NCBI GenBank assembly: GCA_001730085.1
Contig: MDLB01000107.1
Span: 34,432 to 98,431 of the forward strand
DNA: 64,000 nucleotides
From: PVC group bacterium (ex Bugula neritina AB1)
Lineage (GTDB): Bacteria; GCA-001730085
Direction of reading: 5' to 3'
The notes beneath the pieces are model-generated. The model was not told the origin of the DNA, searched no databases, and saw nothing but the letters and a program-made list of their open reading frames with translations. Below, piece after piece: positions 849 through 56,012 of the stretch. The position numbers and the translations under genes were made by a program. The first letter of the stretch is position 1; each line of letters begins with the position of its first letter.

Positions 849-1805
849 TTACGAATTTTCTTTCTGAAAGATATCAAAAGGAGAATCCCCCTCGCCCAAA
901 GCAAATTTAAAAAAAGACTGTTGCGCCTGAACCCATATATTTTCCGAAGACCCCTTATCCTTTAAAGCTTTCTCCCAAAAAAGAGACGTTTCCTTCAGCC
1001 CCCCAGGCCTATGTGTATCAAGCTTAGGCAAGCCCCACTCTTTTGGATCAATAAAGCCTTCAACTTTTTTTTGTCCAATTTTACGGATATACCTTGTCGG
1101 CCTTTTCCAACAAATATCAGATGTCCCTTCTTCCCCAAAAACAAGCGTAACATTCTCTATGCGCCCCTCCATTGCATAAAAATACCTACCTACATAAGGC
1201 TCATGATGCAAAGTCAAAATAGCATGCGTCGCTCCATATGGATTCAAAAGTTTCTCAATCGTATGTAAAAAACTACGAAGACCAACTTCATTGCGCGAAG
1301 AAATAAGTTCTTCATAAAAAGAATACAACTCACATGCATCCCAAAGAACAGGATAATTTTCTAAAGAAAGAGGAATGTTTTGCAAAAAAGGATTTTCAGA
1401 AGAAAAAAGATCCCTTTCTGTTAAACCATATTTAGGACCTATCCCTCGAGCCCCTCCAACAACAACAGGAATACCTGCTTCTTGCAAAAGACCTGCAACT
1501 AACGGAGAAAGGTAAACACTTCTTTTCTTTCCATCAAAAGGACTAGACACAAGCAAACTTCTCGTATTAAAAGGCTTAAAAGGAGAAGGATATGCCTGCT
1601 CCCAAGCATCAAGAAACCCTTTAATTTCATCCTTTGTCGTAGTCTTTCGGCGCATTAACAAAAACAAAGCACCTAAATTTTCTCGAGAAAAGGCCTTCTC
1701 AAAAATCAAAAGACTCATTAAATCAAATGCCTCTTGATATGTATAATCTCTAGATGATCTAGGCCCATTACCTATGATTTTTAAAAATTTAACGGAAGGA
1801 TTCAC
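849..1805 (-). CDS. Glycosyltransferase family 3 (TrpD-like) protein, divergent. The PRPP-binding GTGGD and KHGN motifs are replaced (SSPFD, VGGA). Possibly a TrpD2/YbiB-type non-catalytic homolog.
   Basis: The segment SSPFDGKKRSVYLSPLVAGLLQEAGIPVVVGGARGIGPKYGLTERDL aligns to the TrpD core GTGGDGxxxNISTxxAxxxAxxGVPVAKHGNRSxSSKSGSADxLE. The N-terminal helical region resembles the TrpD N-domain. Only 28 bp downstream of hlyD, so possibly co-transcribed. Confidence 0.45.
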   Translation of the reverse strand: MNPSVKFLKIIGNGPRSSRDYTYQEAFDLMSLLIFEKAFSRENLGALFLLMRRKTTTKDEIKGFLDAWEQAYPSPFKPFNTRSLLVSSPFDGKKRSVYLSPLVAGLLQEAGIPVVVGGARGIGPKYGLTERDLFSSENPFLQNIPLSLENYPVLWDACELYSFYEELISSRNEVGLRSFLHTIEKLLNPYGATHAILTLHHEPYVGRYFYAMEGRIENVTLVFGEEGTSDICWKRPTRYIRKIGQKKVEGFIDPKEWGLPKLDTHRPGGLKETSLFWEKALKDKGSSENIWVQAQQSFFKFALGEGDSPFDIFQKENS

Positions 1806-5149: not shown

Positions 5150-6422
5150 GCTTCACCCCTGCATATGAATCTAAGTCCCCAATCAAAATAGATATTTGCA
5201 AAATTTTTTGCAATTCTTGTGTCCGCACACCTTCAAGTTGTTGTTGCAGAGAAAACTTTTCTTTCTGAAGGTTCAAAATTTCCAACCAAGACTTATGTCC
5301 TGAGTCAAACTGGCGCAAAAAAGAGGTTTGAGTATCTTTGATCAAGTCCAAAGAGCGCTTCAAATACTCTTGAATTTCTTTTTGGGTCTTGATCTGATAT
5401 ATCAAGTCAAGTAATTTTTCAGCAACATCAACTTTCACATCTTCCACTCTCTGCACAGCAACTTCCATTTGCTGTTTTTTTCTCTTCACATCAGCTATTT
5501 TTTGAAGCCCCATACCTGCCCAATCAGACTCCATAACAAGTCCCGCTCTTGTTTCTTCCTTCACATTGGAAAACATTTGATATTCAAACCGCCCCTTAAA
5601 AGTAGGGAAAAACTCCCTAAAACTCGCCTTCAAAGAATTTTCCATGCGGTCAAAAGCTATCTTTTCAGCTAAAACTTCGACCGAGTTTTCATGCGCTCGA
5701 CGAACCAGTTCAGATGTATCTAAAGAATGAATATTTTTTGAAAAACAATCTTCATCTAAGTAGTTAGTCGAATGCAAGGACTCTAAAGATCCAAGTTTAT
5801 CATCAAAAGTGATAAGCCTCAGCTTCTCCAAAACTTGCTCAACCCTACCTCTAACAGTTGCAAGAGTACTTTCAGCATCAAGAGCTCTAACTTGTGCCAA
5901 TTGAACATCCGCCTTAGGGGCATAGTCTCCTTCAAATCGACTCGTTATAAACTTCACCAAAAGATTATGTTCTTCCAAATTATCCTGAGCAAAAGCGAGC
6001 TGCTTACGCGCACCTATCAGTGCCACATACTGAAAAGCAACTTTTTGCATAACCTCACGACAGGTGGACAAATGTTTAATTTGAGATTCTTCTAAATTGA
6101 TTTTTTGAGATTTGACACGGGTATTGATTTTTCCAAAGTCAAAAACGACTTGATCAATCTGAGCAACAGCCTTACTTTCCTTGTCATCAACACTTCCATA
6201 GCCATTAACAATAAACTTTGGAAAGAAATCAGCCCTTGTCTGTTTCACAGAGAATTCGGCTGAATTAATTTCAGCTAAAGCAACTTTAACTTTCGGATGA
6301 TTTTGAACCGCAGAAATCAGCGCTCTAGAAAGCTGGCCAGCAAAAATTTCATCCCCTCCAACACTACTGAAGAAGAAAAAAAGAACACAGGTTATGCGTA
6401 AGCTTTGCATATAAAGACGCAT
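5133..6422 (-). CDS. tolC: TolC-family outer membrane channel protein (T1SS outer membrane component)
   Basis: Signal peptide, coiled-coil/beta-barrel repeat architecture of TolC/OprM-family proteins. 17-bp overlap with the hlyB start indicates an operon. Confidence 0.75.
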   Translation of the reverse strand: MRLYMQSLRITCVLFFFFSSVGGDEIFAGQLSRALISAVQNHPKVKVALAEINSAEFSVKQTRADFFPKFIVNGYGSVDDKESKAVAQIDQVVFDFGKINTRVKSQKINLEESQIKHLSTCREVMQKVAFQYVALIGARKQLAFAQDNLEEHNLLVKFITSRFEGDYAPKADVQLAQVRALDAESTLATVRGRVEQVLEKLRLITFDDKLGSLESLHSTNYLDEDCFSKNIHSLDTSELVRRAHENSVEVLAEKIAFDRMENSLKASFREFFPTFKGRFEYQMFSNVKEETRAGLVMESDWAGMGLQKIADVKRKKQQMEVAVQRVEDVKVDVAEKLLDLIYQIKTQKEIQEYLKRSLDLIKDTQTSFLRQFDSGHKSWLEILNLQKEKFSLQQQLEGVRTQELQKILQISILIGDLDSYAGVKHVRRS

Positions 6423-6792: not shown

Positions 6793-8067
6793 TTAGCTCG
6801 CACTGTTTAGTTTGTCACAAGCTTGTTTAAGAATATTCAATGTTATTTTATGAGCTGGAGTTGAGGTTTCATCAGAAGCTATACTTGGGAAAAAGCCTCT
6901 TTTCTTAATATCCTCAAGGTTTAAATCTTGTCTTTCCCAAAGACATTTTGGAGAGTTCTTCTGACATAAAAGTTGCAACATATTTTGATCCCCAAGCCCC
7001 AAGTCAACAAACTTATGCTTTACTCCATCTTTGCCTAGTACAAAACCCGTATCTCCTCCCTCTGGAATTTGGGTATAACATCTATCTCCAAAGGCAATCA
7101 CTTCTTCTGCAACTTCAGAAAGAGAAGTATCGTCTCGTCTAGAAATGTCTTCCATAATTCTCTTAACCGCAGATTGTTTATCCGATCTACATATAGCCAA
7201 AGTTTTGTCGTCCCATAGAGAAACTTTAGCATCTGGCTTTTCTTCGTTTTTAAAAAAAAATTCGATTTCTTTACAAAGAATCTCTATTTCTTTTGTTTTA
7301 TCACGCAAAGGAGGATGATCTCCCTTAAATGTAATCTGTATCTGTGATAAACCATTTCTTGCCTCATTTTTAAGATCTTCAGTCTCACTCGTTATCGGAT
7401 TGACAGTCAATTCGTAATCTGTCCATATTTCTTTAATAGCGTCAGTAATCGCCTTGTTAAATTGGATATCTAATTTATCTTGTAAAACATACTTCTTTGA
7501 ATATTCCTTATCTAAACTAAACCTTTTTTTATTAGAGTCAAAAACATATCTTGCAGCACCTTGCAGAGCATATAAGACAAAATTATTGAATAAACAATTC
7601 AAAAGTAACTCTGAATTATTGGACTTTAAAATTCTTTGAACAAGAGGGTCCAAAATACTCCTAAATGCAATCCCTTCATAAGCAGCTGTTACTAAATAAA
7701 CAGACTTCCCGTTCAAAAGAAAGGATATAAAAATATCTAAAAGATCATCAGATACTGGAGTCATTCGAGCATCTTCAGATAAAGTGTCATCCACATCAAA
7801 AACCAAAATTTTTGAATTAACAACAGTCTGCGCAGCCATTTTTACCGTTACATCACGAAATCTTTCGAAATGTAACTTTTGTTCCTCACTAAGTCTTTGA
7901 ATGTCAAAATCTTTCCCAGACATCGTATTAATAATTTCTTCAAGCTTTTGCCTGTATCTTCCCTTGTGGCCATCTTCTTCAATAAGCGAACTAAAAACAG
8001 CAAGTGGAAAAAGGTTAGAAACATATATAAACATTACGAACATCATAAATAATAGTTTTGCTTTCAT
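6793..8067 (-). CDS. Hypothetical exported HAD-superfamily hydrolase-like protein
   Basis: N-terminal hydrophobic signal/anchor (MKAKLLFMMFVMFIYVSNLFPLAVFS). HAD motif I LVFDVDDTL, motif II-like VYLVTAA, possible motif IV AFGDRCYTQIPEGGD. Confidence 0.45.
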   Translation of the reverse strand: MKAKLLFMMFVMFIYVSNLFPLAVFSSLIEEDGHKGRYRQKLEEIINTMSGKDFDIQRLSEEQKLHFERFRDVTVKMAAQTVVNSKILVFDVDDTLSEDARMTPVSDDLLDIFISFLLNGKSVYLVTAAYEGIAFRSILDPLVQRILKSNNSELLLNCLFNNFVLYALQGAARYVFDSNKKRFSLDKEYSKKYVLQDKLDIQFNKAITDAIKEIWTDYELTVNPITSETEDLKNEARNGLSQIQITFKGDHPPLRDKTKEIEILCKEIEFFFKNEEKPDAKVSLWDDKTLAICRSDKQSAVKRIMEDISRRDDTSLSEVAEEVIAFGDRCYTQIPEGGDTGFVLGKDGVKHKFVDLGLGDQNMLQLLCQKNSPKCLWERQDLNLEDIKKRGFFPSIASDETSTPAHKITLNILKQACDKLNSAS

Positions 8068-28918: not shown

Positions 28919-29788
28919 TAAAAACTACACCCTTTATCTCTAAAAAAAAGCCTTAATTATCAAGAAAGTTCTCTAAAAAATCAAAAAGAATATTCTTTAA
29001 AACAATAAAAATACAAAAACATTTCGTTTCAAAAAATAACTAATCTTCGCTTATGTATGTTTTAAAAATAACAAAAAATATAAAAAATCTTACAAAATAT
29101 TTTACTACGGAAACATTATACAAATAAACGAAAAGTGAAATTTTATAAAAATTCATATTTTAAAACGATTATCGTCTCATATTTTATTTTAATTTTCAAG
29201 AAAAGAAGATTTTAAAGAGTAAAGTTTTTTCACAAAAGATCAAAAACGTACAACTCATTCATCAAAAACAATACCCCTACAACTCTCTTCCCATCAAACA
29301 ACGTTCCCAAAGGAACATCACTGAACATTTTTTTCCATATAAGAATTTTAAACCTTCACCTTTAATAAAGAAGAGTAGGGCAGAGAACCTTCAATATCTA
29401 TTAGCTCAAATAAAATTGCTAAGAAAAACAAAATACAAAGTCTCTAAAAAAGTCATACCTTAAAATTGCAAAAAAAATCCTAACACCAAAACCTAAAAGA
29501 TCTTTATCCTCTCTTAAAAGATATTCCTATAAAGCTCTTTCCATCAAACAACGTTCCCAAGGGAACATCACTAAATATTTTTTCCATATAAGAATCCTAA
29601 ACCCTCGCCTTTAATAAAGAAGAGTCGGACAGGGGAGCCTCAACATCTATTAGTTCAAATAAAAATCCTGAGAAAAACAAAACACAAAGTCTCTAAAAAA
29701 GTCATACCTTAAAATTGCAAAAAAATCCTAACACCAAAATCTAAGAGATCTTCATCCTCTCTTAAAAGATATTCCTATAAAGCTCTTT

Positions 29789-30660
29789 CCATCAAACAAC
29801 GTTCCCAAGGGAACATCACGAAATATTTTTTCCATACAAGAATATAAAACCTTCACCTTTAATAAAGGAGAGTAGGACAGAGAAGCTTCAATATCTATTA
29901 GCACGAATAAAAATCCTAACACCAAAACCTAAGAAATCTGCATCCTCCCTTAAAAGATATTCCTATAAAGCTCTTTCCATCAAACAACATTCCCAAGAGA
30001 ACATCACTAAATATTTTTTCCATACAAGAATATAAACCCTTCACCTTTAATAAAGGAAAGTAGGGCAGAGAAGCTTCAATATCTATTAGCACGAATAAAA
30101 ATCCTAACACCAAAACCTACGAGATCTGCATCCTCTCTTAAAAGATATCCCTATAAAGCTCTTTCCATCAAACAACGTTCCCAAGGGAACATCACTGAAT
30201 ATTTTTTCCATATAAGAATTTTAAACATTCACCCTTAATAAAGGAGAGTAGGGCAGAGAAGCTTCAATATCTATTAGCACGAATAAAAATCCTGAGGAAA
30301 ACAAGATACAAAGTCTCTAAAAAAGTCATACCTTAAAATTACAAAAAAATCCTAACACCAAAACCTAAGAGATCTCTATCCTCTCTTAAAAGATATCCCT
30401 ATAAAGCTCTTTCCATCAAACAACGTTCCCAAGGGAACATCACTAAATATTTTTTCCATATAAGAATTTCAAACCTTCACCTTTAATAAAGGAGAGTCGG
30501 ACAGGGGCGCCTCAACATCTATTAGTTCAAATAAAAATCCTGAGAAAAACAAAACACAAAGTCTCTAAAAAAGTCACACCTTAAAATTGCAAAAAAATCC
30601 TAACACCAAAATCTAAGAGATCTTCATCCTCTCTTAAAAGATATTCCTATAAAGCTCTTT
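29789..30660. repeat. Higher-order repeat copy 1 (S-S-L-L, 872 bp)
   Basis: Unit boundaries at 29789, 29977, 30165, 30413 and 30661. The first ~376 bp are near-identical to copy 2. Confidence 0.85.
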
Positions 30661-31530
30661 CCATCAAACAACGTTCCCAAGGGAACATCACGAAATATTT
30701 TTTCCATACAAGAATATAAAACCTTCACCTTTAATAAAGGAGAGTAGGACAGAGAAGCTTCAATATCTATTAGCACGAATAAAAATCCTAACACCAAAAC
30801 CTAAGAAATCTGCATCCTCCCTTAAAAGATATTCCTATAAAGCTCTTTCCATCAAACAACATTCCCAAGAGAACATCACTAAATATTTTTTCCATACAAG
30901 AATATAAACCCTTCACCTTTAATAAAGGAAAGTAGGGCAGAGAAGCTTCAATATCTATTAGCACGAATAAAAATCCTAACACCAAAACCTACGAGATCTG
31001 CATCCTCTCTTAAAAGATATCCCTATAAAGCTCTTTCCATCAAACAACGTTCCCAAAGGAACATCACTGAACATCTTTTCCATATAAGAATTTTAAACCT
31101 TCACCTTTAATAAAGGAGAGTCGGGCAGGGAAGTCTCAATATTTATTAGTTCAAATAAAAACCCTGAGAAAAACAAAACACAAAGCCTCTAAAAAAGTCA
31201 CACCTTAAAATTGCAAAAAAATCCTAACACCAAAATCTAAGAGATCTTCATCCTCTCTTAAAAGATATTCCTATAAAGCTCTTTCCATCAAACAACGTTC
31301 CCAAGGAAACATCCCTGAAATTTTTTTCCATACAAGAATTTAATTCCTTCATTTTTAATAAAGGAGACTACGGCAGGGAAGCCTCAATATTTATTAGTTC
31401 AAATAAAATTGCTAAGAAAAAAAATACAAAGTCTCTAAAAAAGTCATACCTTAAAATTACAAAAAAATCCTAATACCAAAAACTAAGAGATCTGCATCCT
31501 CTCTTAAAAGATATTTCTATAAAGCTCTTT
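30661..31530. repeat. Higher-order repeat copy 2 (S-S-L-L, ~870 bp)
   Basis: Unit boundaries at 30661, 30849, 31037, 31285 and 31531. Confidence 0.85.
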
Positions 31531-31958
31531 CCATCAAACAACGTTCCCAAGGGAACATCACTGAATATTTTTTTCCATACAAGAATTTAATTCCTTCATT
31601 TTTAATAAAGGAGACTAGGACAGGGAAGCGTCAATATCTATTAGCTCAAATAGAATTGCTAAGAAAAACAAAATACAAAATCTCTAAAAAGAGACAAATC
31701 TTAAACTCATAAAAAAAATACAAAAGACAACAGTCTAAACAAACAAAAACTCTAGAAAAAATATCATTAAATATTTTTTTCATATCAATAAATTTCAATT
31801 AAATATAAAAAAAGAGAAGTCGAAGAGCGAAAGATAGCAAAGTAAATATCAGATCAAAAAGAAAGAGGAGAAGTTTCGAAAAAGATAACTAAAAAGGGAA
31901 TATTCAAAAAATAAAAAAACTCATAAGAAAAAAACCGTCAGAAAAAATTTAAGAAAAA

Positions 31959-45715: not shown

Positions 45716-45914
45716 AAAATCAGATATTTTGTACAAAGGACTCTTTAAATGTTATACTTAGGATCTTGGGATCGTTTCAAAGGGTATTCATAAACTATCT
45801 TTCAATGAAAATCATATGTACGACTTTGTAAGTATCTCATATGCGATTTTTTCTTAACTTTTTCGTTATTCAAATAAGCCTTTGGAACGATTGTTAGCAA
45901 GTTATTTATTAATA

Positions 45915-48014
45915 ATGAATAACTTTAAAAAATCTATTAACACGTGCAAAGTTCTTACTATAGAAGAAAGGTGTGTCGTAAAAGTGTACTGTGGTCATTG
46001 TGGCGCCTATGGAGACAGCAAAAATGTTTTTTGTATTAATTGTGGTCATCAGTTAAGCTCTGAAGCCACGATACAAAACTCTTTAAAAACTCAGCCATAT
46101 AAAGATCCCTCTCTTTCACAAACATCAGACTCATCTAAAAACTCGATCACGAGAACCATTCCGAGTAAAAACTTAAGAACAGATACATCTCTTCCAAGTA
46201 AAAAATATTTTCAAAATGGATTCATTTTCGCTGACCGCTACAGGATCGAAAACTTGTTAGGAAAGGGTGGAATGGGTGAAGTTTATAAGGTTTACGATTT
46301 AAACCTAGGCGAAGTCCGTGCTTTAAAAGTTTTAAACCCATCCTTTCTAAATAACGCCGACTTACTTCAACGCTTTGAAAACGAAGCACAAATGATCCAC
46401 AGGATGAATCATATTAACCTAGTAAAATTTATAAATTATACCCACTTTGAAAATACACCATATATAGTCATGGAGTATGTCAAAGGTATTTCTTTACGAG
46501 AATGGATGAATAAGCATGGGGTAAATGCCCCTTTGAAAGAAACTATAGATATTATTATAAAGGTTTGTCAAGGATTAAAAGAGGTCCATAAATATATAAC
46601 TCATAAAGATATCAAACCTGAAAATATCATAATATCAGAGAGTGGTTCAGTAAAAATCGTAGACTTTGGTATATCTCAACCTCCAGGCTTTTCCATTCTC
46701 TCTAATGATAACTCTTCTATAGGAACAGTTTACTATGCAGCCCCTGAGCAAACAATCTCTCCTTCGAACATTGATCAGCGTGCAGATATTTTTTCTGTTG
46801 GTGTAATCATTTACGAAATGCTTTACGCGAAAGTTCCAATAGGTAGATTCAAAATTTTACCTTCAAAGAAAAAAAATATAACAAAAAAATTAACAGAAAT
46901 AATACAAAAATCTTTAGAATCTGAAGTGGAAGATCGCTACCAATCAATAAACTCTTTGCTTGTAGATTTAACTGACCAATACAATAAGATATCTAATCCA
47001 AAATTTTCACCGGAACAAAAAAAATCTTCGAACAATACTGAAACTATCCCTAAAAAAAATAACAATTTTTCCACATTTTTATCGATTTTAATCATAATAG
47101 CTATTTTTTTCACTATCTCATATATAGCTTATAAGAAAACTTTTGCCTCATTACTCTCTACTCCTCAACTCTTCGCCCCTTCTCAATTTTTAGATACGGA
47201 GAACCTTTCGGAAAAAAAACACCAGATACATCAAAACCCAATGTTTATTGCTTCTAAAAAACTAAGGATCCCTTTTAGCTTCATTGCTGTTAATCATTTT
47301 CAAAGAGGTGATATCTGGGGGGATGGAGAAGTCGATGAAACCCCTGTCAAAAAAATTCATATGGACTCTTTCTATATGAGCCAATACGAAATAACAAATG
47401 GCCAATACAAAGTTTTTATTAATAGTACAAATTATCCTCCCCCTGTTAATGCGTTAGGAGAGGATAGTGACTATACGATTTGGAATAACAACTATATATC
47501 AGAAGAACTTCTAAACTTTCCTGTCGTGAATATCTCATGGGTAGATGCCAACGCTTTTTGTCGCTGGTTATGTGAATATGAAAATGTCCCACTATCAACT
47601 TATAGATTACCGACCGAAGCAGAGTGGGAGTTTGCGGCTACACCTCTTCGAAAGAATAAATACCCCTGGGGTAATGAGTTTCCGGACTATCAAAAAGCTA
47701 ATTTTGGTAAAAAATGGATGGGAGCTTTAACCTTGAAAAAAGTTGGAAGTTATCCTCCTAATAATAACTTTTTATATGATATGGCTGGTAATGTTTGGGA
47801 GTGGTGCCAAGATACCTATGAAAAAGATTTTTATAATAAAGACATTAAGGAAAACCCCATTTCATACTCACAAACTGATAATCGTGTTCTAAGGGGAGGT
47901 GCTTGGAGTAGTTATGGGCATTTACTAAGAACTTCCAACCGCCACTATAATGATAAAAATAGTCGCTATTATGATAATGGTTTTAGGATCGTGAGAACCA
48001 TCGACAATTCATAG
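45915..48014 (+). CDS. Serine/threonine protein kinase with an N-terminal zinc ribbon, one TM helix and a C-terminal FGE-sulfatase (SUMF1-like) domain. Start uncertain: track start is TTG 45882; candidates are ATG 45915 and a GTG just before YCGHCG.
   Basis: CGHCG...CINCGH zinc ribbon; Hanks kinase motifs GKGGMGEVY, ALK, HKDIKPEN, DFG, APE; a TM segment FLSILIIIAIFFTISYIAY; a C-terminal FGE-like domain ending RGGAWSS... Confidence 0.85.
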   Translation: MNNFKKSINTCKVLTIEERCVVKVYCGHCGAYGDSKNVFCINCGHQLSSEATIQNSLKTQPYKDPSLSQTSDSSKNSITRTIPSKNLRTDTSLPSKKYFQNGFIFADRYRIENLLGKGGMGEVYKVYDLNLGEVRALKVLNPSFLNNADLLQRFENEAQMIHRMNHINLVKFINYTHFENTPYIVMEYVKGISLREWMNKHGVNAPLKETIDIIIKVCQGLKEVHKYITHKDIKPENIIISESGSVKIVDFGISQPPGFSILSNDNSSIGTVYYAAPEQTISPSNIDQRADIFSVGVIIYEMLYAKVPIGRFKILPSKKKNITKKLTEIIQKSLESEVEDRYQSINSLLVDLTDQYNKISNPKFSPEQKKSSNNTETIPKKNNNFSTFLSILIIIAIFFTISYIAYKKTFASLLSTPQLFAPSQFLDTENLSEKKHQIHQNPMFIASKKLRIPFSFIAVNHFQRGDIWGDGEVDETPVKKIHMDSFYMSQYEITNGQYKVFINSTNYPPPVNALGEDSDYTIWNNNYISEELLNFPVVNISWVDANAFCRWLCEYENVPLSTYRLPTEAEWEFAATPLRKNKYPWGNEFPDYQKANFGKKWMGALTLKKVGSYPPNNNFLYDMAGNVWEWCQDTYEKDFYNKDIKENPISYSQTDNRVLRGGAWSSYGHLLRTSNRHYNDKNSRYYDNGFRIVRTIDNS

Positions 48015-49367: not shown

Positions 49368-49569
49368 AAAAACCCCTCACTTGAGATCAAAGCAAATATT
49401 TACTCACAAGATTACGAGCTTTGAAAAATACCTCATAATCTTGCTTGTCGTTCTTTTTTTTAATTTTGTCATAAAAAAGCCCATCTCTATTACGGACACG
49501 AACTTTTATCGAAATAATAAACTGTTGAAAAGCTTCTTCCAATACAAACTATGTGGTATTTTGACCTAA

Positions 49570-50287
49570 TCTAAAGATTTATATCTTATAATAAAGATTG
49601 TGACAATAATCTCGATACCTTGAAAAAAGGTTAACAGCTAGTGCTTTTTACGGCTAAAAGTAACACTTATAATCTTACTTAAGAAAATTAAAATAAGCTA
49701 TTTTTTTTTTTGACTACCAAAAATCATAAAAAAGATAACCTGTGGATAACATGTGTCTAATTTATGAATACAACTATTTTAAGAAAAAAAATAAATCTTA
49801 TTACCCAAATTCTAACTAGAAAAAAGCAGTAACAGCTGGCTAATTTATAATATTAAAGATTTAGAAAAAAATATATAAAAAAAAGATCCAAAAGAATAGA
49901 TCAATTACATTTATTTTAATTTTATATATTATTATTTAGCATATATATATTTATTTTAAAAGAAATTATAATATTTTTTCTTGATCAAAGAATTTAAAAA
50001 AGAAAACTTATATAAAAAAATCAAACCATATTCATCATTGTGTACATCAAGTTCTCAAGTTATAATACAACATGTGCATAACTTGTGCGTAAGTATTGAT
50101 TTTATAAACAACAAGATCTTTGGACAACATTCTACATCCCCAATAAGGGCATTATGAATGTTTGTACAAAAAGCTTTATACACCTCTGCTCCCCTTTTCT
50201 CACAAGTGATTAGATACTGAGATAAAAAGTAGAAGCTAAATGCTTTCTTTCTGAAGAAGTAAAAAGTATATAGGAAGTTTAGACATA
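49570..50287. promoter_or_regulatory. Candidate oriC left part: DnaA box TGTGGATAA (49741-49749) with an adjacent GATAACC half-site, followed by an extremely AT-rich stretch (about 49880-49990, candidate DNA-unwinding element) upstream of dnaA
   Basis: A perfect reverse-complement TTATCCACA consensus. A 920-bp gene-free AT-rich region immediately upstream of dnaA. Confidence 0.55.
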
Positions 50288-51643
50288 ATGACATTCAATA
50301 ACATAGAAACTTTAAAGGAAGCTCTAAAAGACCTGATTGGAAAAAAATCCTACGAAACTTGGTTTCAAAGTTTGGATATAGAAATGACAGAGCAGGATAG
50401 TTGGACAATATGGACACCTAATCTTTTTTATAAGCAAAGGGTTGAGCAACAGTTTAAAATCCCAATCAAAGAGGTCTCAAAAGCACTCTCCTGTGAGATA
50501 GATATTCATGTTAATCAAAAAAATCATTTATCTAAAAATGTTCCATCTAAAACAGAAGAAGCTTCTGAACAACCTTTTCAAAAAAAAAAAACAACATCTA
50601 CAGATGAGCCTCAAAGTGTCTCTTCTTCGAAGTCACTTTTTAAGTACTCCTTTGATAACTTTATTGTTGGTCCTAATAACCAGTTAGCACATGCAATCGC
50701 CCTTGCCGTTTCCACAAATCCAGGTCAAACATATAATCCTTTTTTTCTATATAGTCCTGTAGGATTAGGGAAAACACATATTATGCAAGCCATCGCAATG
50801 AGTATTCAAAAACATAACCCCGAATATAAAATCAAATACTTATCCACAGAACAGTTCACAAATGAACTGATCGCATCCATCCAAAATAAAACAATTGAAC
50901 AGTTTAGAACGAAATACAGAACTATGGATGTTTTGCTTTTGGATGATATCCAGTTTCTAGAAGGAAAAGAACGAACACAAGAAGAGTTCTTTCACACCTT
51001 TAATCAATTGTATAATGAAAACAAACAAATAATACTTAGTTCTGACCGTTCTCCCACAGATATCCCACGCTTAGAAGATCGCCTTATTTCACGTTTTGAA
51101 TGGGGAATAAAAGCTGATATAGAAGCACCAGACTTTGAAACACGTGTGGCTATTTTGCAAAAAAAATCAGAAAATACACAGGCTCGTATTTCTCCAGATA
51201 TCTTACAGTACATAGCCTCTAACTTCACATCAAATATTCGAGAGCTGGAAGGTGCTTTACTAAAAGTCTTAGCTCTTAGTCAATTCCAATCCACAGAAAT
51301 ATCCCTAGATACTGTTCAGCAACATTTTCAGCCACAAAAGAAAGCTCCAACTGTTCATTTAACACCTGATCGGATCCAAAATATCATATGTGAACACTTT
51401 AATATAAGTATAGAAGACCTTAACTCTTCAAAAAGGAAACGTATGATTGTAATTCCTCGACAAATAGCTATGTACCTCTGTCGAGAGTTAACAGCCTATT
51501 CTTTTCCAGAAATAGGTGCTTTTTTTGGAGGAAAAGACCATACAACTATTATGCATGCGCATGAAAAGTTAAAAAAAAGCTATCAAACGGATCAGGAATT
51601 AAAAATAACTATTGATAAGCTAATAGAAAAAATACGTGGATAA
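50288..51643 (+). CDS. dnaA: Chromosomal replication initiator protein DnaA
   Basis: AAA+ Walker A GPVGLGKTH, a sensor region, and a C-terminal DNA-binding domain (box-binding helix ...IGAFFGGKDHTTIMHA). Confidence 0.97.
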   Translation: MTFNNIETLKEALKDLIGKKSYETWFQSLDIEMTEQDSWTIWTPNLFYKQRVEQQFKIPIKEVSKALSCEIDIHVNQKNHLSKNVPSKTEEASEQPFQKKKTTSTDEPQSVSSSKSLFKYSFDNFIVGPNNQLAHAIALAVSTNPGQTYNPFFLYSPVGLGKTHIMQAIAMSIQKHNPEYKIKYLSTEQFTNELIASIQNKTIEQFRTKYRTMDVLLLDDIQFLEGKERTQEEFFHTFNQLYNENKQIILSSDRSPTDIPRLEDRLISRFEWGIKADIEAPDFETRVAILQKKSENTQARISPDILQYIASNFTSNIRELEGALLKVLALSQFQSTEISLDTVQQHFQPQKKAPTVHLTPDRIQNIICEHFNISIEDLNSSKRKRMIVIPRQIAMYLCRELTAYSFPEIGAFFGGKDHTTIMHAHEKLKKSYQTDQELKITIDKLIEKIRG

Positions 51644-52104
51644 GTTGGTAGATCCTGTGGATAACCTATTGATAAGTGTCATAGATATCCACAGTCAGCT
51701 AAACAATTCCTTGTTGTATTCACAAAAAATATCACTTTTTTCCCAAGGGATCAACAAATAAAACTTTTTGTTCTTCCCGTAATTTAGAGAGTTTTATAGG
51801 TTATCCACAATTTTAATCCACCTATGATAATGATGATGATTTTTATAATCTATAATAAAATAGAAGTATGGCTACAGTGAGACATATCGCTCAATGGATA
51901 ATCAGATATCTTGAGATTCGATATCTAAGAGCTTCTGATAAAGAACTTTTTATCTCTTATCCTAGTTATATTTTTTAGTTTATGAGCTAATTAGTACGGA
52001 ACTTTATCGTAGGCTGATTCAAAATTAGCAAAAAATAGAATAAAGCATAATATTATTAAATATTTTTTAATAAATAAGTCTTTAAGTAAAAAAAACAAAA
52101 AAAT
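51635..52104. promoter_or_regulatory. Candidate oriC right part / dnaA-dnaN intergenic DnaA-box cluster
   Basis: CGTGGATAA (51635-51643, overlapping the dnaA stop), TGTGGATAA (51657-51665), ATATCCACA (51685-51693), TTATCCACA (51801-51809), a weak TTAATCCAC (about 51813-51821), then an AT-rich tract. Confidence 0.6.

Positions 52105-53304: not shown

Positions 53305-56012
<2,708 letters not shown>

What the first reader, a model, noticed from the sequence alone, without database searches (positions are those of the whole stretch)
45882..48014. Zn-ribbon / Hanks kinase / TM / FGE-sulfatase-domain fusion protein (Pkn1-like architecture)
The protein fuses an N-terminal CxxC...CxxC zinc ribbon and an active-looking Ser/Thr kinase (HKDIKPEN, DFG, APE) to a membrane helix and an extracytoplasmic formylglycine-generating-enzyme-like domain. 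The FGE fold is used for Cys oxidation/sulfoxide chemistry or as a binding module. Here it is probably the sensor of a transmembrane eukaryote-like kinase. To my recollection a kinase-FGE fusion is also the architecture of chlamydial Pkn1-type kinases. Start codon is ambiguous (TTG 45882, ATG 45915, or GTG before YCGHCG).
Basis: partly seen in the sequence, partly recalled or inferred. Interest (0 to 1): 0.55.

Follow-up and report, generated by a model that had tools for sequence, protein, structure and literature searches.

The report
Membrane Ser/Thr kinase with FGE-like sensor
This gene encodes an ordinary bacterial receptor-type serine/threonine kinase whose outside-facing domain has the fold of the formylglycine-generating enzyme but lacks its catalytic cysteines; this domain combination is already common and named in databases, and here it occurs in an uncultured marine PVC bacterium.

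Summary
One intact gene, most likely 45984..48014 (676 aa, GTG start), encodes four parts:
- an N-terminal CxxC-x10-CxxC zinc ribbon;
- a complete Hanks-type kinase (Pfam E 2e-44);
- one transmembrane helix;
- a C-terminal FGE-sulfatase fold (Pfam E 4e-52; AF2 pLDDT 88; TM-score 0.71 to solved FGEs).

The window matches, at 100% identity, a deposited "hypothetical protein" of the PVC bacterium AB1_div from the bryozoan Bugula neritina.

Both copper-binding catalytic cysteines of FGE are missing, in this protein and in its three 45-51% identical orthologues. There is no DinB-type iron domain either. The outer domain is therefore best read as a binding or sensor module, not an enzyme.

Kinase-FGE fusions are abundant: 45 of 57 sampled have the same transmembrane layout, and NCBI already has a name for them.

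This protein is not a Pkn1 family member, however. Identity is 24-32%, Pkn1 has no membrane helix or zinc ribbon, its catalytic loop is different (atypical), and the trees show no supported sister relationship.

The ligand and the substrates are unknown.

Verdict: a new member of a known kind, of low to moderate interest.

The parts
45984..48014 (+). Most likely coding sequence (GTG start, TAG stop; 676 aa) of the zinc-ribbon / Hanks kinase / TM / FGE-like protein
   Evidence: ORF. The identical 676-aa NCBI protein P0001. The start is supported by orthologue comparison. Start and stop codons were checked.
45882..45983 (+). In-frame upstream extension (TTG 45882, ATG 45915), probably untranslated 5' leader
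   Evidence: Not conserved in the orthologues. L001 has an in-frame stop in the equivalent position. No Shine-Dalgarno-like sequence is visible before either codon.
45990..46043 (+). N-terminal zinc ribbon, CGHC-x10-CINC (C37, C40, C51, C54 in ORF numbering; C3, C6, C17, C20 of the 676-aa protein)
   Evidence: Weak Pfam Zn_Ribbon_1/DZR matches. All four Cys are conserved in P0002-4, P0015 and P0032. AF2 pLDDT is 72-77.
46062..46202 (+). Disordered Ser/Thr/Pro-rich linker (45% S+T+P) between the zinc ribbon and the kinase
   Evidence: pLDDT <50 for residues 27-73 of the 676-aa model. Composition. A role as an autophosphorylation or docking region is an inference.
46239..46958 (+). Hanks-type Ser/Thr protein kinase domain with a complete catalytic set (G-loop, K149, E168, HKD D243, N248, DFG, APE)
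   Evidence: Pfam PF00069 E 1.9e-44. PDB StkP/PknB hits at E 1e-35 to 3e-39. Invariant columns. AF2 pLDDT mostly >90.
47067..47135 (+). Single transmembrane helix (FSTFLSILIIIAIFFTISYIAYK)
   Evidence: Kyte-Doolittle maximum of 2.46. An equivalent segment is present in P0002-4 and in 45 of 57 sampled kinase-FGE fusions. Modelled as a helix at 361-391 in AF2.
47298..47996 (+). Extracytoplasmic FGE-sulfatase-fold domain lacking both catalytic cysteines (the Cys-pair region reads GGAWSSYGHLLRTSNR, 47886-47951 region)
   Evidence: Pfam PF03781 E 3.6e-52. AF2 ectodomain model with pLDDT 88. Foldseek TM-score 0.71 to FGE 2q17/6muj and 0.73-0.81 to PvdO 5hha. Alignments to the S. coelicolor FGE motif 'GGSYLCHDSYC'.
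45730..45758 (+). Candidate own promoter (TGTACA-17 nt-TATACT with TG upstream of the -10)
   Evidence: Consensus scan (the scan as a whole is not above chance). A 'TCATGATATACT' element is identical upstream of the orthologues in L001 and L004. Inference only.

Best explanation
The gene encodes a bitopic (N-in, C-out) receptor-type Hanks serine/threonine kinase.

Layout. The cytoplasmic part consists of a small zinc ribbon, a disordered Ser/Thr-rich linker and a catalytically competent kinase domain. A single helix crosses the inner membrane. The periplasmic part is a domain with the formylglycine-generating-enzyme (C-type-lectin-like) fold. It has lost the two copper-binding cysteines and therefore acts as a ligand- or protein-binding sensor, not as an oxidase.

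Proposed mechanism, by analogy with PknB/StkP-type receptor kinases. Occupancy of the outer domain changes the oligomeric state or localisation of the protein. This controls autophosphorylation (in the activation loop and/or the S/T-rich linker) and phosphorylation of cytoplasmic substrates.

Shown: domain identities, catalytic residues, the membrane helix, loss of the FGE cysteines, and vertical conservation in the lineage.

Inferred: topology, the signalling mechanism, and the sensor role.

Unknown: ligand and substrates.
For: - Domain matches and motifs.
- AF2 models: kinase and FGE domains at pLDDT >90, joined by one long helix, with a low pTM of 0.49. This is consistent with independent domains on either side of a membrane.
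- The fold search puts the ectodomain with FGE, pFGE, PvdO, PorK, CarF and TvpA. These include several non-FGE binding or structural proteins.
- The Cys pair is absent. HMMER aligns 'GGAW---SSYGHLLR' to 'GGSYlchDSYCNRYR' of copper-bound FGE 6muj. The same loss is seen in all three orthologues.
- Only about 35 residues lie between the helix and the FGE fold, so there is no room for the DinB-type iron domain of EgtB/OvoA. The EgtB, SenA and OvoA models match only their C-terminal FGE-like parts, far below cut-off.
- 45 of 57 sampled kinase-FGE fusions have a membrane helix between the domains.
- FGE-sulfatase is described as a C-terminal domain of a bacterial STK family (bioRxiv 10.1101/2025.01.12.632604) and as a sensor domain of STAND NTPases (PMC13581612).
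- The orthologues are 45-51% identical and keep the kinase / folA / thyA arrangement. The genome is only 1.9 Mb (PMC5041132). This suggests a retained core signalling gene.
Against: - No experimental datum exists for this protein or its close clade.
- The positive-inside rule does not discriminate the orientation (2 Lys on each flank). Topology therefore rests on the kinase needing cytoplasmic ATP.
- The catalytic loop is HKD, not HRD. The orthologues have HRD, so regulation by activation-loop phosphorylation may differ.
- Loss of the cysteines excludes FGE chemistry but does not by itself prove that the domain is non-enzymatic. NCBIfam names PvdO, which shares the fold, a dihydropyoverdine dehydrogenase.
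- No partner (FHA protein, PP2C phosphatase) is encoded in the 64-kb window.
Confidence: 0.8

Rival explanations
1. Functional counterpart of chlamydial Pkn1. On this reading the protein is a membrane-anchored kinase-FGE regulator of FtsZ-independent, peptidoglycan-dependent cell division, and its periplasmic domain reads out the state of the envelope or peptidoglycan. This is a specific sub-case of the best explanation.
For: - The two domains occur in the same order as in Pkn1.
- Pkn1 localises to the septum, depends on MreB, and its knockdown blocks division and lowers peptidoglycan (bioRxiv 10.64898/2026.09.24.754023).
- AB1_div was reported to lack FtsZ but to have the peptidoglycan synthesis genes (PMC5041132).
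- The chlamydial FGE-like domains are among the nearest to this one (ranks 5, 6 and 9 of 49). They also lack both cysteines and share the motif 'LR.S.RH.N'.
Against: - The kinase domains are the most distant of all those sampled (ranks 44-49 of 49; exclusive sister in 0 of 200 bootstraps). The FGE domains are exclusive sisters in only 14 of 200.
- Pkn1 has no membrane helix, so its FGE-like domain is cytoplasmic.
- The Pkn1 catalytic loop is atypical.
- No division or cell-wall gene is adjacent here.
Confidence: 0.15
2. Truly bifunctional protein, as the NCBI family names suggest ('bifunctional serine/threonine-protein kinase/formylglycine-generating enzyme', 'SUMF1/EgtB/PvdO family nonheme iron enzyme'). 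On this reading the outer domain is an oxidase that modifies a periplasmic protein or metabolite.
For: - Strong FGE-sulfatase profile and fold match.
- Relatives carry those names.
- NCBIfam names PvdO, which has the same fold, a dihydropyoverdine dehydrogenase; the match to that model is 75 bits against a cut-off of 500.
Against: - Both FGE cysteines, which are the Cu(I) ligands, are absent.
- There is no DinB/His-triad domain of the kind used by EgtB/OvoA (established structural knowledge of EgtB, PDB 4x8b).
- Every NCBIfam enzyme model scores far below its cut-off.
- No sulfatase or siderophore genes are in the window.
Confidence: 0.05
3. Regulator of the type IV pilus machinery through the adjacent PilT/PilU-family retraction ATPase.
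For: - The upstream same-strand gene is a PilT/PilU-family ATPase (TIGR01420, 441.9 bits against a cut-off of 319).
- The pilT-kinase adjacency recurs in the P0004 loci L001-L003.
Against: - The P0003 locus has a divergent ABC transporter upstream instead.
- The intergenic gap is 268 nt to GTG 45984, and a candidate promoter conserved in the orthologues lies in it. This argues for separate transcription.
- No other pilus genes are nearby.
Confidence: 0.08
4. Anti-phage defence kinase (PD-T4-6 / MADS6 / PglW-like) that uses the FGE fold as a sensor of foreign proteins.
For: - PADLOC PD-T4-6 models hit at E 4e-64, and mad6 at 1e-51.
- FGE-sulfatase domains serve as sensors in defence-associated STAND proteins.
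Against: - The PADLOC and NCBIfam hits cover only the generic kinase domain (residues ~80-378) and fall far below the equivalog cut-offs.
- The sensor domain lies outside the cytoplasm.
- The gene sits among housekeeping genes 2-4 kb from dnaA, with conserved synteny across 45-51% identical orthologues. It is not in a defence island.
Confidence: 0.03

Closest known systems
Bacterial kinase-FGE fusion proteins (NCBI name 'bifunctional serine/threonine-protein kinase/formylglycine-generating enzyme family protein'; FGE-sulfatase listed as one of three C-terminal organisations of the 'Proteo1' family in the Atlas of bacterial STKs)
   Same: - N-terminal Hanks kinase, a single membrane helix and a C-terminal PF03781 domain; 45 of 57 sampled members have this layout.
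- Some members also carry the N-terminal zinc ribbon (P0005, P0015, P0032, P0115).
- None of the sampled members keeps the first FGE cysteine.
   Different: - The window protein and its three orthologues form their own clade (194/200 and 200/200 bootstraps).
- Identity to all other fusions is only 24-33% overall, up to about 38% within single domains.
- The clade has also lost the second cysteine, which about half of the other fusions keep.
- It has a clade-specific version of the long insert before the 'PVxxVSW' motif.
- In the sample, all four parts together were seen only in this clade and in P0115.
Chlamydial Pkn1 (C. trachomatis CT145 family)
   Same: - Kinase followed by an SUMF1/FGE-like domain.
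- The FGE-like domain lacks both catalytic cysteines and is 32% identical over 237 residues.
- Both organisms belong to the PVC superphylum and are reported to lack FtsZ.
   Different: - Pkn1 has no membrane helix or zinc ribbon and is cytoplasmic and septal.
- Its catalytic loop is AHR[G/S]LKLNN or AHFGIKLNN, against HKDIKPEN here.
- It has a long insertion in the activation segment, and the kinase domains are only 24% identical.
- The trees show no supported sister relationship.
PASTA-domain receptor kinases PknB / StkP / Stk1
   Same: - They are the best solved-structure and NCBIfam matches for the kinase domain (StkP E 2.9e-39, PknB 6.6e-36; NF033483 235 bits).
- The topology is the same: cytoplasmic kinase, one helix, extracytoplasmic sensor.
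   Different: - The sensor is an FGE fold, not PASTA repeats.
- The NF033483 score of 235 is well below the cut-off of 450, and the match covers only the kinase part.
Formylglycine-generating enzyme (SUMF1; S. coelicolor and T. curvata FGE)
   Same: Whole-domain fold match (Foldseek E ~1e-20, TM-score 0.67-0.72, 25-27% identity). The conserved motifs RLPTEAEWE and GNVWEW are shared.
   Different: Both catalytic, Cu(I)-binding cysteines are missing. The domain is fused to a kinase and anchored to the membrane.
Proteins with the FGE fold that are not formylglycine-generating enzymes: PorK/GldK (T9SS ring), pFGE/SUMF2, PvdO, T. denticola TvpA, CarF
   Same: - PorK is the best sequence match to the ectodomain in the PDB (E 2.4e-25).
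- All of them share the fold.
- In the aligned region PorK also has no cysteine at the FGE active-site positions ('GGSWKDVARFIRSATR').
   Different: - None of these is fused to a kinase.
- The GldK model scores 131 bits against a cut-off of 350.
- PorK has a large extra insertion (TM-score normalised to the target is only 0.43-0.45).

Membership tests
Hanks-type (eukaryote-like) Ser/Thr protein kinases | Pkinase profile match above the curated threshold | tested here: met
   PF00069 scores 152.5 bits against a cut-off of 31.7, E 1.9e-44.
Hanks-type (eukaryote-like) Ser/Thr protein kinases | Catalytic residues: G-loop, VAIK Lys, alphaC Glu, HxD catalytic Asp, Asn, DFG, APE | tested here: met
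   GKGGMG127-132, K149, E168, D243, N248, DFG261-263 and APE287-289. The Arg of HRD is Lys here (HKD).
Hanks-type (eukaryote-like) Ser/Thr protein kinases | Phosphotransfer activity | not testable with these tools
   Needs an in vitro kinase assay.
Formylglycine-generating enzyme (catalytic FGE/SUMF1) | FGE-sulfatase fold | tested here: met
   PF03781 scores 178 bits. The AF2 model has TM-score 0.71 to 2q17/6muj.
Formylglycine-generating enzyme (catalytic FGE/SUMF1) | Active-site cysteine pair that binds Cu(I) (human C336/C341; 'LCHDSYC' in S. coelicolor) | tested here: not met
   The region reads GGAWSSYGHLLR. There is no Cys at either position in the HMMER alignment or the MAFFT alignment. 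The same holds in orthologues P0002-4.
EgtB/OvoA/SenA sulfoxide or selenoxide synthases | N-terminal DinB-like domain carrying the iron-binding His triad, followed by the FGE-like domain | tested here: not met
   The models match only their C-terminal FGE-like parts (for example EgtB positions 273-412 of 413, 69.7 bits against a cut-off of 360). Only about 35 residues lie between the membrane helix and the FGE fold.
Chlamydial Pkn1 orthologous family | Kinase domain followed by an SUMF1/FGE-like domain | tested here: met
Chlamydial Pkn1 orthologous family | Soluble cytoplasmic protein without a transmembrane segment | tested here: not met
   The literature states this for Pkn1. Pkn1-family proteins L015 and L025 have a maximum Kyte-Doolittle value of 0.46 and 1.36 in the linker, against 2.46 here.
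Chlamydial Pkn1 orthologous family | Sequence similarity and phylogenetic grouping with the family | tested here: not met
   Identity within the family is 52-75%. Window against P0203 gives 24% (kinase) and 32% (FGE domain). Exclusive sister grouping occurs in 0 of 200 and 14 of 200 bootstraps. C. trachomatis Pkn1 itself could not be retrieved.
Chlamydial Pkn1 orthologous family | Family-typical catalytic loop AHR[G/S]LKLNN | tested here: not met
   The window has the canonical HKDIKPEN.
Stk1/PknB PASTA kinases (NF033483) | Whole-protein score above the equivalog cut-off, and extracellular PASTA repeats | tested here: not met
   235.5 bits against a cut-off of 450, with the match on the kinase part only (residues 114-395). 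There is no PASTA hit in Pfam.
PorK/GldK T9SS lipoprotein (TIGR03525) | Whole-protein score above the equivalog cut-off | tested here: not met
   131.2 bits against a cut-off of 350.
PD-T4-6 / MADS6 defence kinases | Match beyond the generic kinase domain, and a defence-island context | tested here: not met
   The PADLOC hits span residues ~80-378 only. NF047741 scores 164.5 bits against a cut-off of 460. The neighbours are housekeeping genes.

The most novel reading that the evidence does not exclude
The clade represented by this gene is the membrane-anchored equivalent, possibly an ancestral-like form, of chlamydial Pkn1 in a free-standing PVC lineage that also divides without FtsZ. On this reading, its cysteine-less periplasmic FGE fold senses a peptidoglycan- or envelope-derived cue and couples that cue to the division machinery. 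That would give the first clue to what the enigmatic SUMF1-like domain of Pkn1-type kinases recognises.
Probability: 0.1. Interest if true: 0.6.

Novelty: new member of a known kind. Interest (0 to 1): 0.25.

Why it matters
The practical gain is modest. A deposited 'hypothetical protein' of a poorly known PVC lineage (candidate division NPL-UPA2, bin AB1_div) can now be annotated with:
- a resolved start codon;
- a domain map;
- the explicit statement that its FGE-like domain cannot be a formylglycine-generating enzyme.

This corrects the misleading 'bifunctional ... formylglycine-generating enzyme' and 'nonheme iron enzyme' names that relatives carry.

More broadly, kinase-FGE fusions are numerous but functionally uncharacterised. 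The exception is chlamydial Pkn1, which was very recently tied to cell division. A conserved, single, membrane-anchored representative in a 1.9-Mb FtsZ-less genome is a reasonable comparison point for asking what the FGE fold senses.

Tried and rejected
1. Orthology with chlamydial Pkn1. I retrieved chlamydial kinase-FGE loci (L015, L025) and confirmed that they belong to the family that sources name Pkn1. Direct BLASTP and neighbour-joining trees of each domain with 200 bootstraps were then run. Rejected as membership. A weak FGE-domain affinity remains unresolved.
2. C. trachomatis Pkn1 itself could not be obtained. Verma & Maurelli 2003 is not held and the afdb50 fold library is unavailable.
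3. Catalytic FGE, EgtB or PvdO role. Rejected on the missing cysteines and the missing DinB domain.
4. Defence kinase. The PADLOC hits are kinase-domain-only. Rejected on context.
5. Promoter and terminator scan around the gene. Counts were not above the shuffled expectation (19 against 17.1; 2 against 2.1), so it is uninformative apart from one -10-like element that recurs upstream of the orthologues.
6. The first tree script timed out and was re-run with faster code.
It returned neither AB1_div itself nor its close relatives, so the taxonomic range of the close clade in GTDB genomes was not established.
8. Literature searches for a demonstrated ligand of any kinase-linked FGE-sulfatase domain found none.
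Full report
**What is in the sequence**

The ORF 45882..48014 on the + strand is real and uninterrupted. Its product is 100% identical to a deposited 676-aa protein. That record is 'hypothetical protein AB834_07060' of 'PVC group bacterium (ex Bugula neritina AB1)'.

The organism is the metagenomic bin AB1_div from ovicells of the bryozoan Bugula neritina. It has a 1.91-Mb genome at 34.7% GC and is assigned to candidate division NPL-UPA2 within the PVC superphylum. It was reported to lack FtsZ but to encode peptidoglycan synthesis (PMC5041132).

The window is the replication-origin region of that chromosome. Its gene content is mnmG-parAB, the atp and sdh operons, mnmE-yidC, fur, the suf operon, tgt, pilT, the kinase, folA-thyA (convergent), then dnaA-dnaN-gyrB-gyrA. 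The GC-skew minimum lies near 50-52 kb.

**Domain anatomy (ORF numbering; subtract 34 for the 676-aa protein)**

| Part | Residues | Evidence |
|---|---|---|
| Zinc ribbon | 36-58 | Pfam Zn_Ribbon_1 weak, E 1.6e-3, below threshold |
| Disordered linker | about 61-107 | pLDDT <50; 45% Ser/Thr/Pro |
| Kinase | 120-359 | Pfam Pkinase E 1.9e-44 |
| Membrane helix | 396-418 | mean Kyte-Doolittle 2.46 |
| FGE-like domain | 473-705 | Pfam FGE-sulfatase E 3.6e-52 |

- The four zinc-ribbon cysteines, C37/C40/C51/C54, are conserved in every close orthologue and in distant zinc-ribbon-kinase-FGE proteins.
- All canonical kinase residues are present: GKGGMG, K149, E168, HKD-D243, N248, DFG, APE, D302 and R352.
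- The one departure is Lys for Arg in the HRD motif. The orthologues have HRD.
- The full-length AlphaFold2 model has mean pLDDT 81.8. It shows a moderately confident ribbon, the disordered linker, a high-confidence kinase, one long helix at the hydrophobic segment, a short disordered tether and a high-confidence C-terminal domain.

**Start codon**

- In the orthologous locus L001 an in-frame TGA lies 27 nt upstream of the ATG that immediately precedes YCGKCG.
- In L004 the corresponding GTG has an AGGGG Shine-Dalgarno sequence 6 nt upstream.
- Sequence upstream of 'YCG' is not conserved among the orthologues.
- GenBank uses the same start.

**Is the C-terminal domain an enzyme?**

The ectodomain model (pLDDT 88) superposes on solved FGEs at TM-score about 0.71. 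It superposes equally well on fold relatives that are not FGEs: PvdO, pFGE, PorK, TvpA and CarF.

In the HMMER alignment to copper-bound S. coelicolor FGE (6muj), the active-site stretch 'GGSYlchDSYCNRYR' aligns with 'GGAW---SSYGHLLR'. In gapless MAFFT register the two cysteine positions are Ser and Leu. Either way both Cu(I)-ligand cysteines are gone, as they are in all three orthologues.

Across 50 kinase-FGE fusions, none keeps the first cysteine and about half keep the second.

The sulfoxide-synthase type of chemistry (EgtB/OvoA/SenA) needs an N-terminal DinB-like iron domain. That domain is absent, and those NCBIfam models match only their FGE-like tails, far below cut-off.

The domain is therefore best read as a binding or sensor module. 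This is the role the fold plays in STAND immune sensors (PMC13581612) and, by established knowledge, in DGR variable proteins such as TvpA.

**How common is the architecture?**

It is very common. The first homology search returned dozens of Pkinase plus FGE-sulfatase proteins. They came from Planctomycetota, Acidobacteriota, Bacteroidota-like gut metagenomes and other sources. Several are named 'bifunctional serine/threonine-protein kinase/formylglycine-generating enzyme family protein'.

Of 57 two-domain proteins I compiled, 45 have a membrane helix between the domains. Ten have an N-terminal CxxC...CxxC motif; two of the ten are the window protein and its identical database copy.

A preprint atlas of bacterial STKs lists FGE-sulfatase as a C-terminal domain of one STK family.

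**The close clade**

Three metagenomic proteins (P0002-4) are 45-51% identical over the full length. They share the zinc ribbon, the membrane helix, the loss of both cysteines, and a clade-specific form of the insert before 'PVxNVSW'.

Their loci keep the kinase convergent with folA-thyA. Two of the three lineages (the window and the P0004 loci) also keep a PilT/PilU-family ATPase immediately upstream.

This looks like a vertically inherited core gene of the lineage, not a mobile or defence gene. A 'TCATGATATACT' element is identical upstream of the two orthologue genes whose upstream DNA I read (L001, L004). A similar extended -10 occurs in the window (45753-45758). This hints at an own promoter.

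**Comparison with chlamydial Pkn1**

C. trachomatis Pkn1 has an N-terminal kinase and a C-terminal SUMF1-related domain (bioRxiv 10.64898/2026.09.24.754023).

The same paper, and a 2016 review, state that Pkn1 has no transmembrane domain and is cytoplasmic. Pkn1 localises to the septum in an MreB-dependent way and is needed for division and for normal peptidoglycan levels.

I recovered chlamydial kinase-FGE genes (L015, L025). L015 belongs to a tight family (52-75% identity) with members named Pkn1.

Against a named member (P0203) the window protein is 32% identical in the FGE-like domain and 24% in the kinase.

In domain-wise neighbour-joining trees both clades are well supported, but they are exclusive sisters in 0 of 200 replicates (kinase) and 14 of 200 (FGE domain).

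Pkn1-family proteins lack the helix and the zinc ribbon. Their catalytic loop is AHR[G/S]LKLNN.

So the two proteins resemble each other in domain order, and perhaps in the subtype of FGE-like domain. This protein is not a Pkn1 family member.

**Mechanism proposed**

- The protein is a bitopic receptor kinase: kinase inside, FGE-fold sensor in the periplasm.
- Ligand- or partner-dependent clustering drives autophosphorylation and substrate phosphorylation, as in PknB/StkP.
- PknB and StkP are the best structural and sequence matches of the kinase domain.
- The step from anatomy to mechanism is inference.
- The ligand, the substrates and the role of the zinc ribbon are unknown.

Four alternatives were considered: a Pkn1-like division role, a true oxidase, PilT regulation and anti-phage defence. 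They are weighed in the rival explanations. The PADLOC PD-T4-6 hits are generic kinase-domain matches.

**Verdict**

This is a new member of a well-populated, already named architecture, with an uncharacterised sensor. Interest is low to moderate.

Noticed in passing
window 29222-31717: A non-coding tandem array of about 2.5 kb lies between mnmG/gidA and mnmE. It has about 10 units of alternating 188 and 248 nt, giving a higher-order period of 872 nt, at 60-96% identity. It contains only short repeated TTG ORFs (57 and 65 aa) and has no Rfam match at gathering threshold.
   Followed up: partly
L015 2789-4798; L025 405-2432; proteins P0158, P0203, P0234: Environmental chlamydial Pkn1-family proteins have AHRGLKLNN, AHRSLKLNN or AHFGIKLNN where Hanks kinases have HRDxKPxN. 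The catalytic-base Asp is therefore replaced by Gly or Ser, although C. trachomatis Pkn1 is reported to be an active kinase. Whether C. trachomatis shares this loop could not be checked.
   Followed up: partly
window 49368-52104: This is probably the oriC region. The cumulative GC skew reaches its minimum at about 50-52 kb. The thyA|dnaA (49368-50287) and dnaA|dnaN (51644-52104) intergenic regions are long and AT-rich. DnaA boxes were not searched.
   Followed up: no
window 45749-45759; L001 ~6160-6171; L004 ~2781-2792: An identical 12-mer, TCATGATATACT, lies upstream of the kinase orthologues in two genomes whose proteins are only about 50% identical. The window has a similar AATGTTATACT. It looks like a conserved extended -10 promoter element.
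   Followed up: partly
window 6793-8067 (-), 849-1805 (-), 53305-53619 (+): These ORFs of 424, 318 and 104 aa have no Pfam match at E <= 1e-5. The first two flank a TolC/HlyD/ABC export cluster, and the 104-aa ORF lies between dnaN and gyrB.
   Followed up: no
PDB entries 7spq and 5nxl: Stand-alone FGE-fold proteins are deposited under the names 'Serine/threonine kinase ToxD' and 'Non-specific serine/threonine protein kinase' (T. curvata FGE). This is apparently annotation carried over from kinase-FGE fusions, and it shows how misleading the names in this family are.
   Followed up: no
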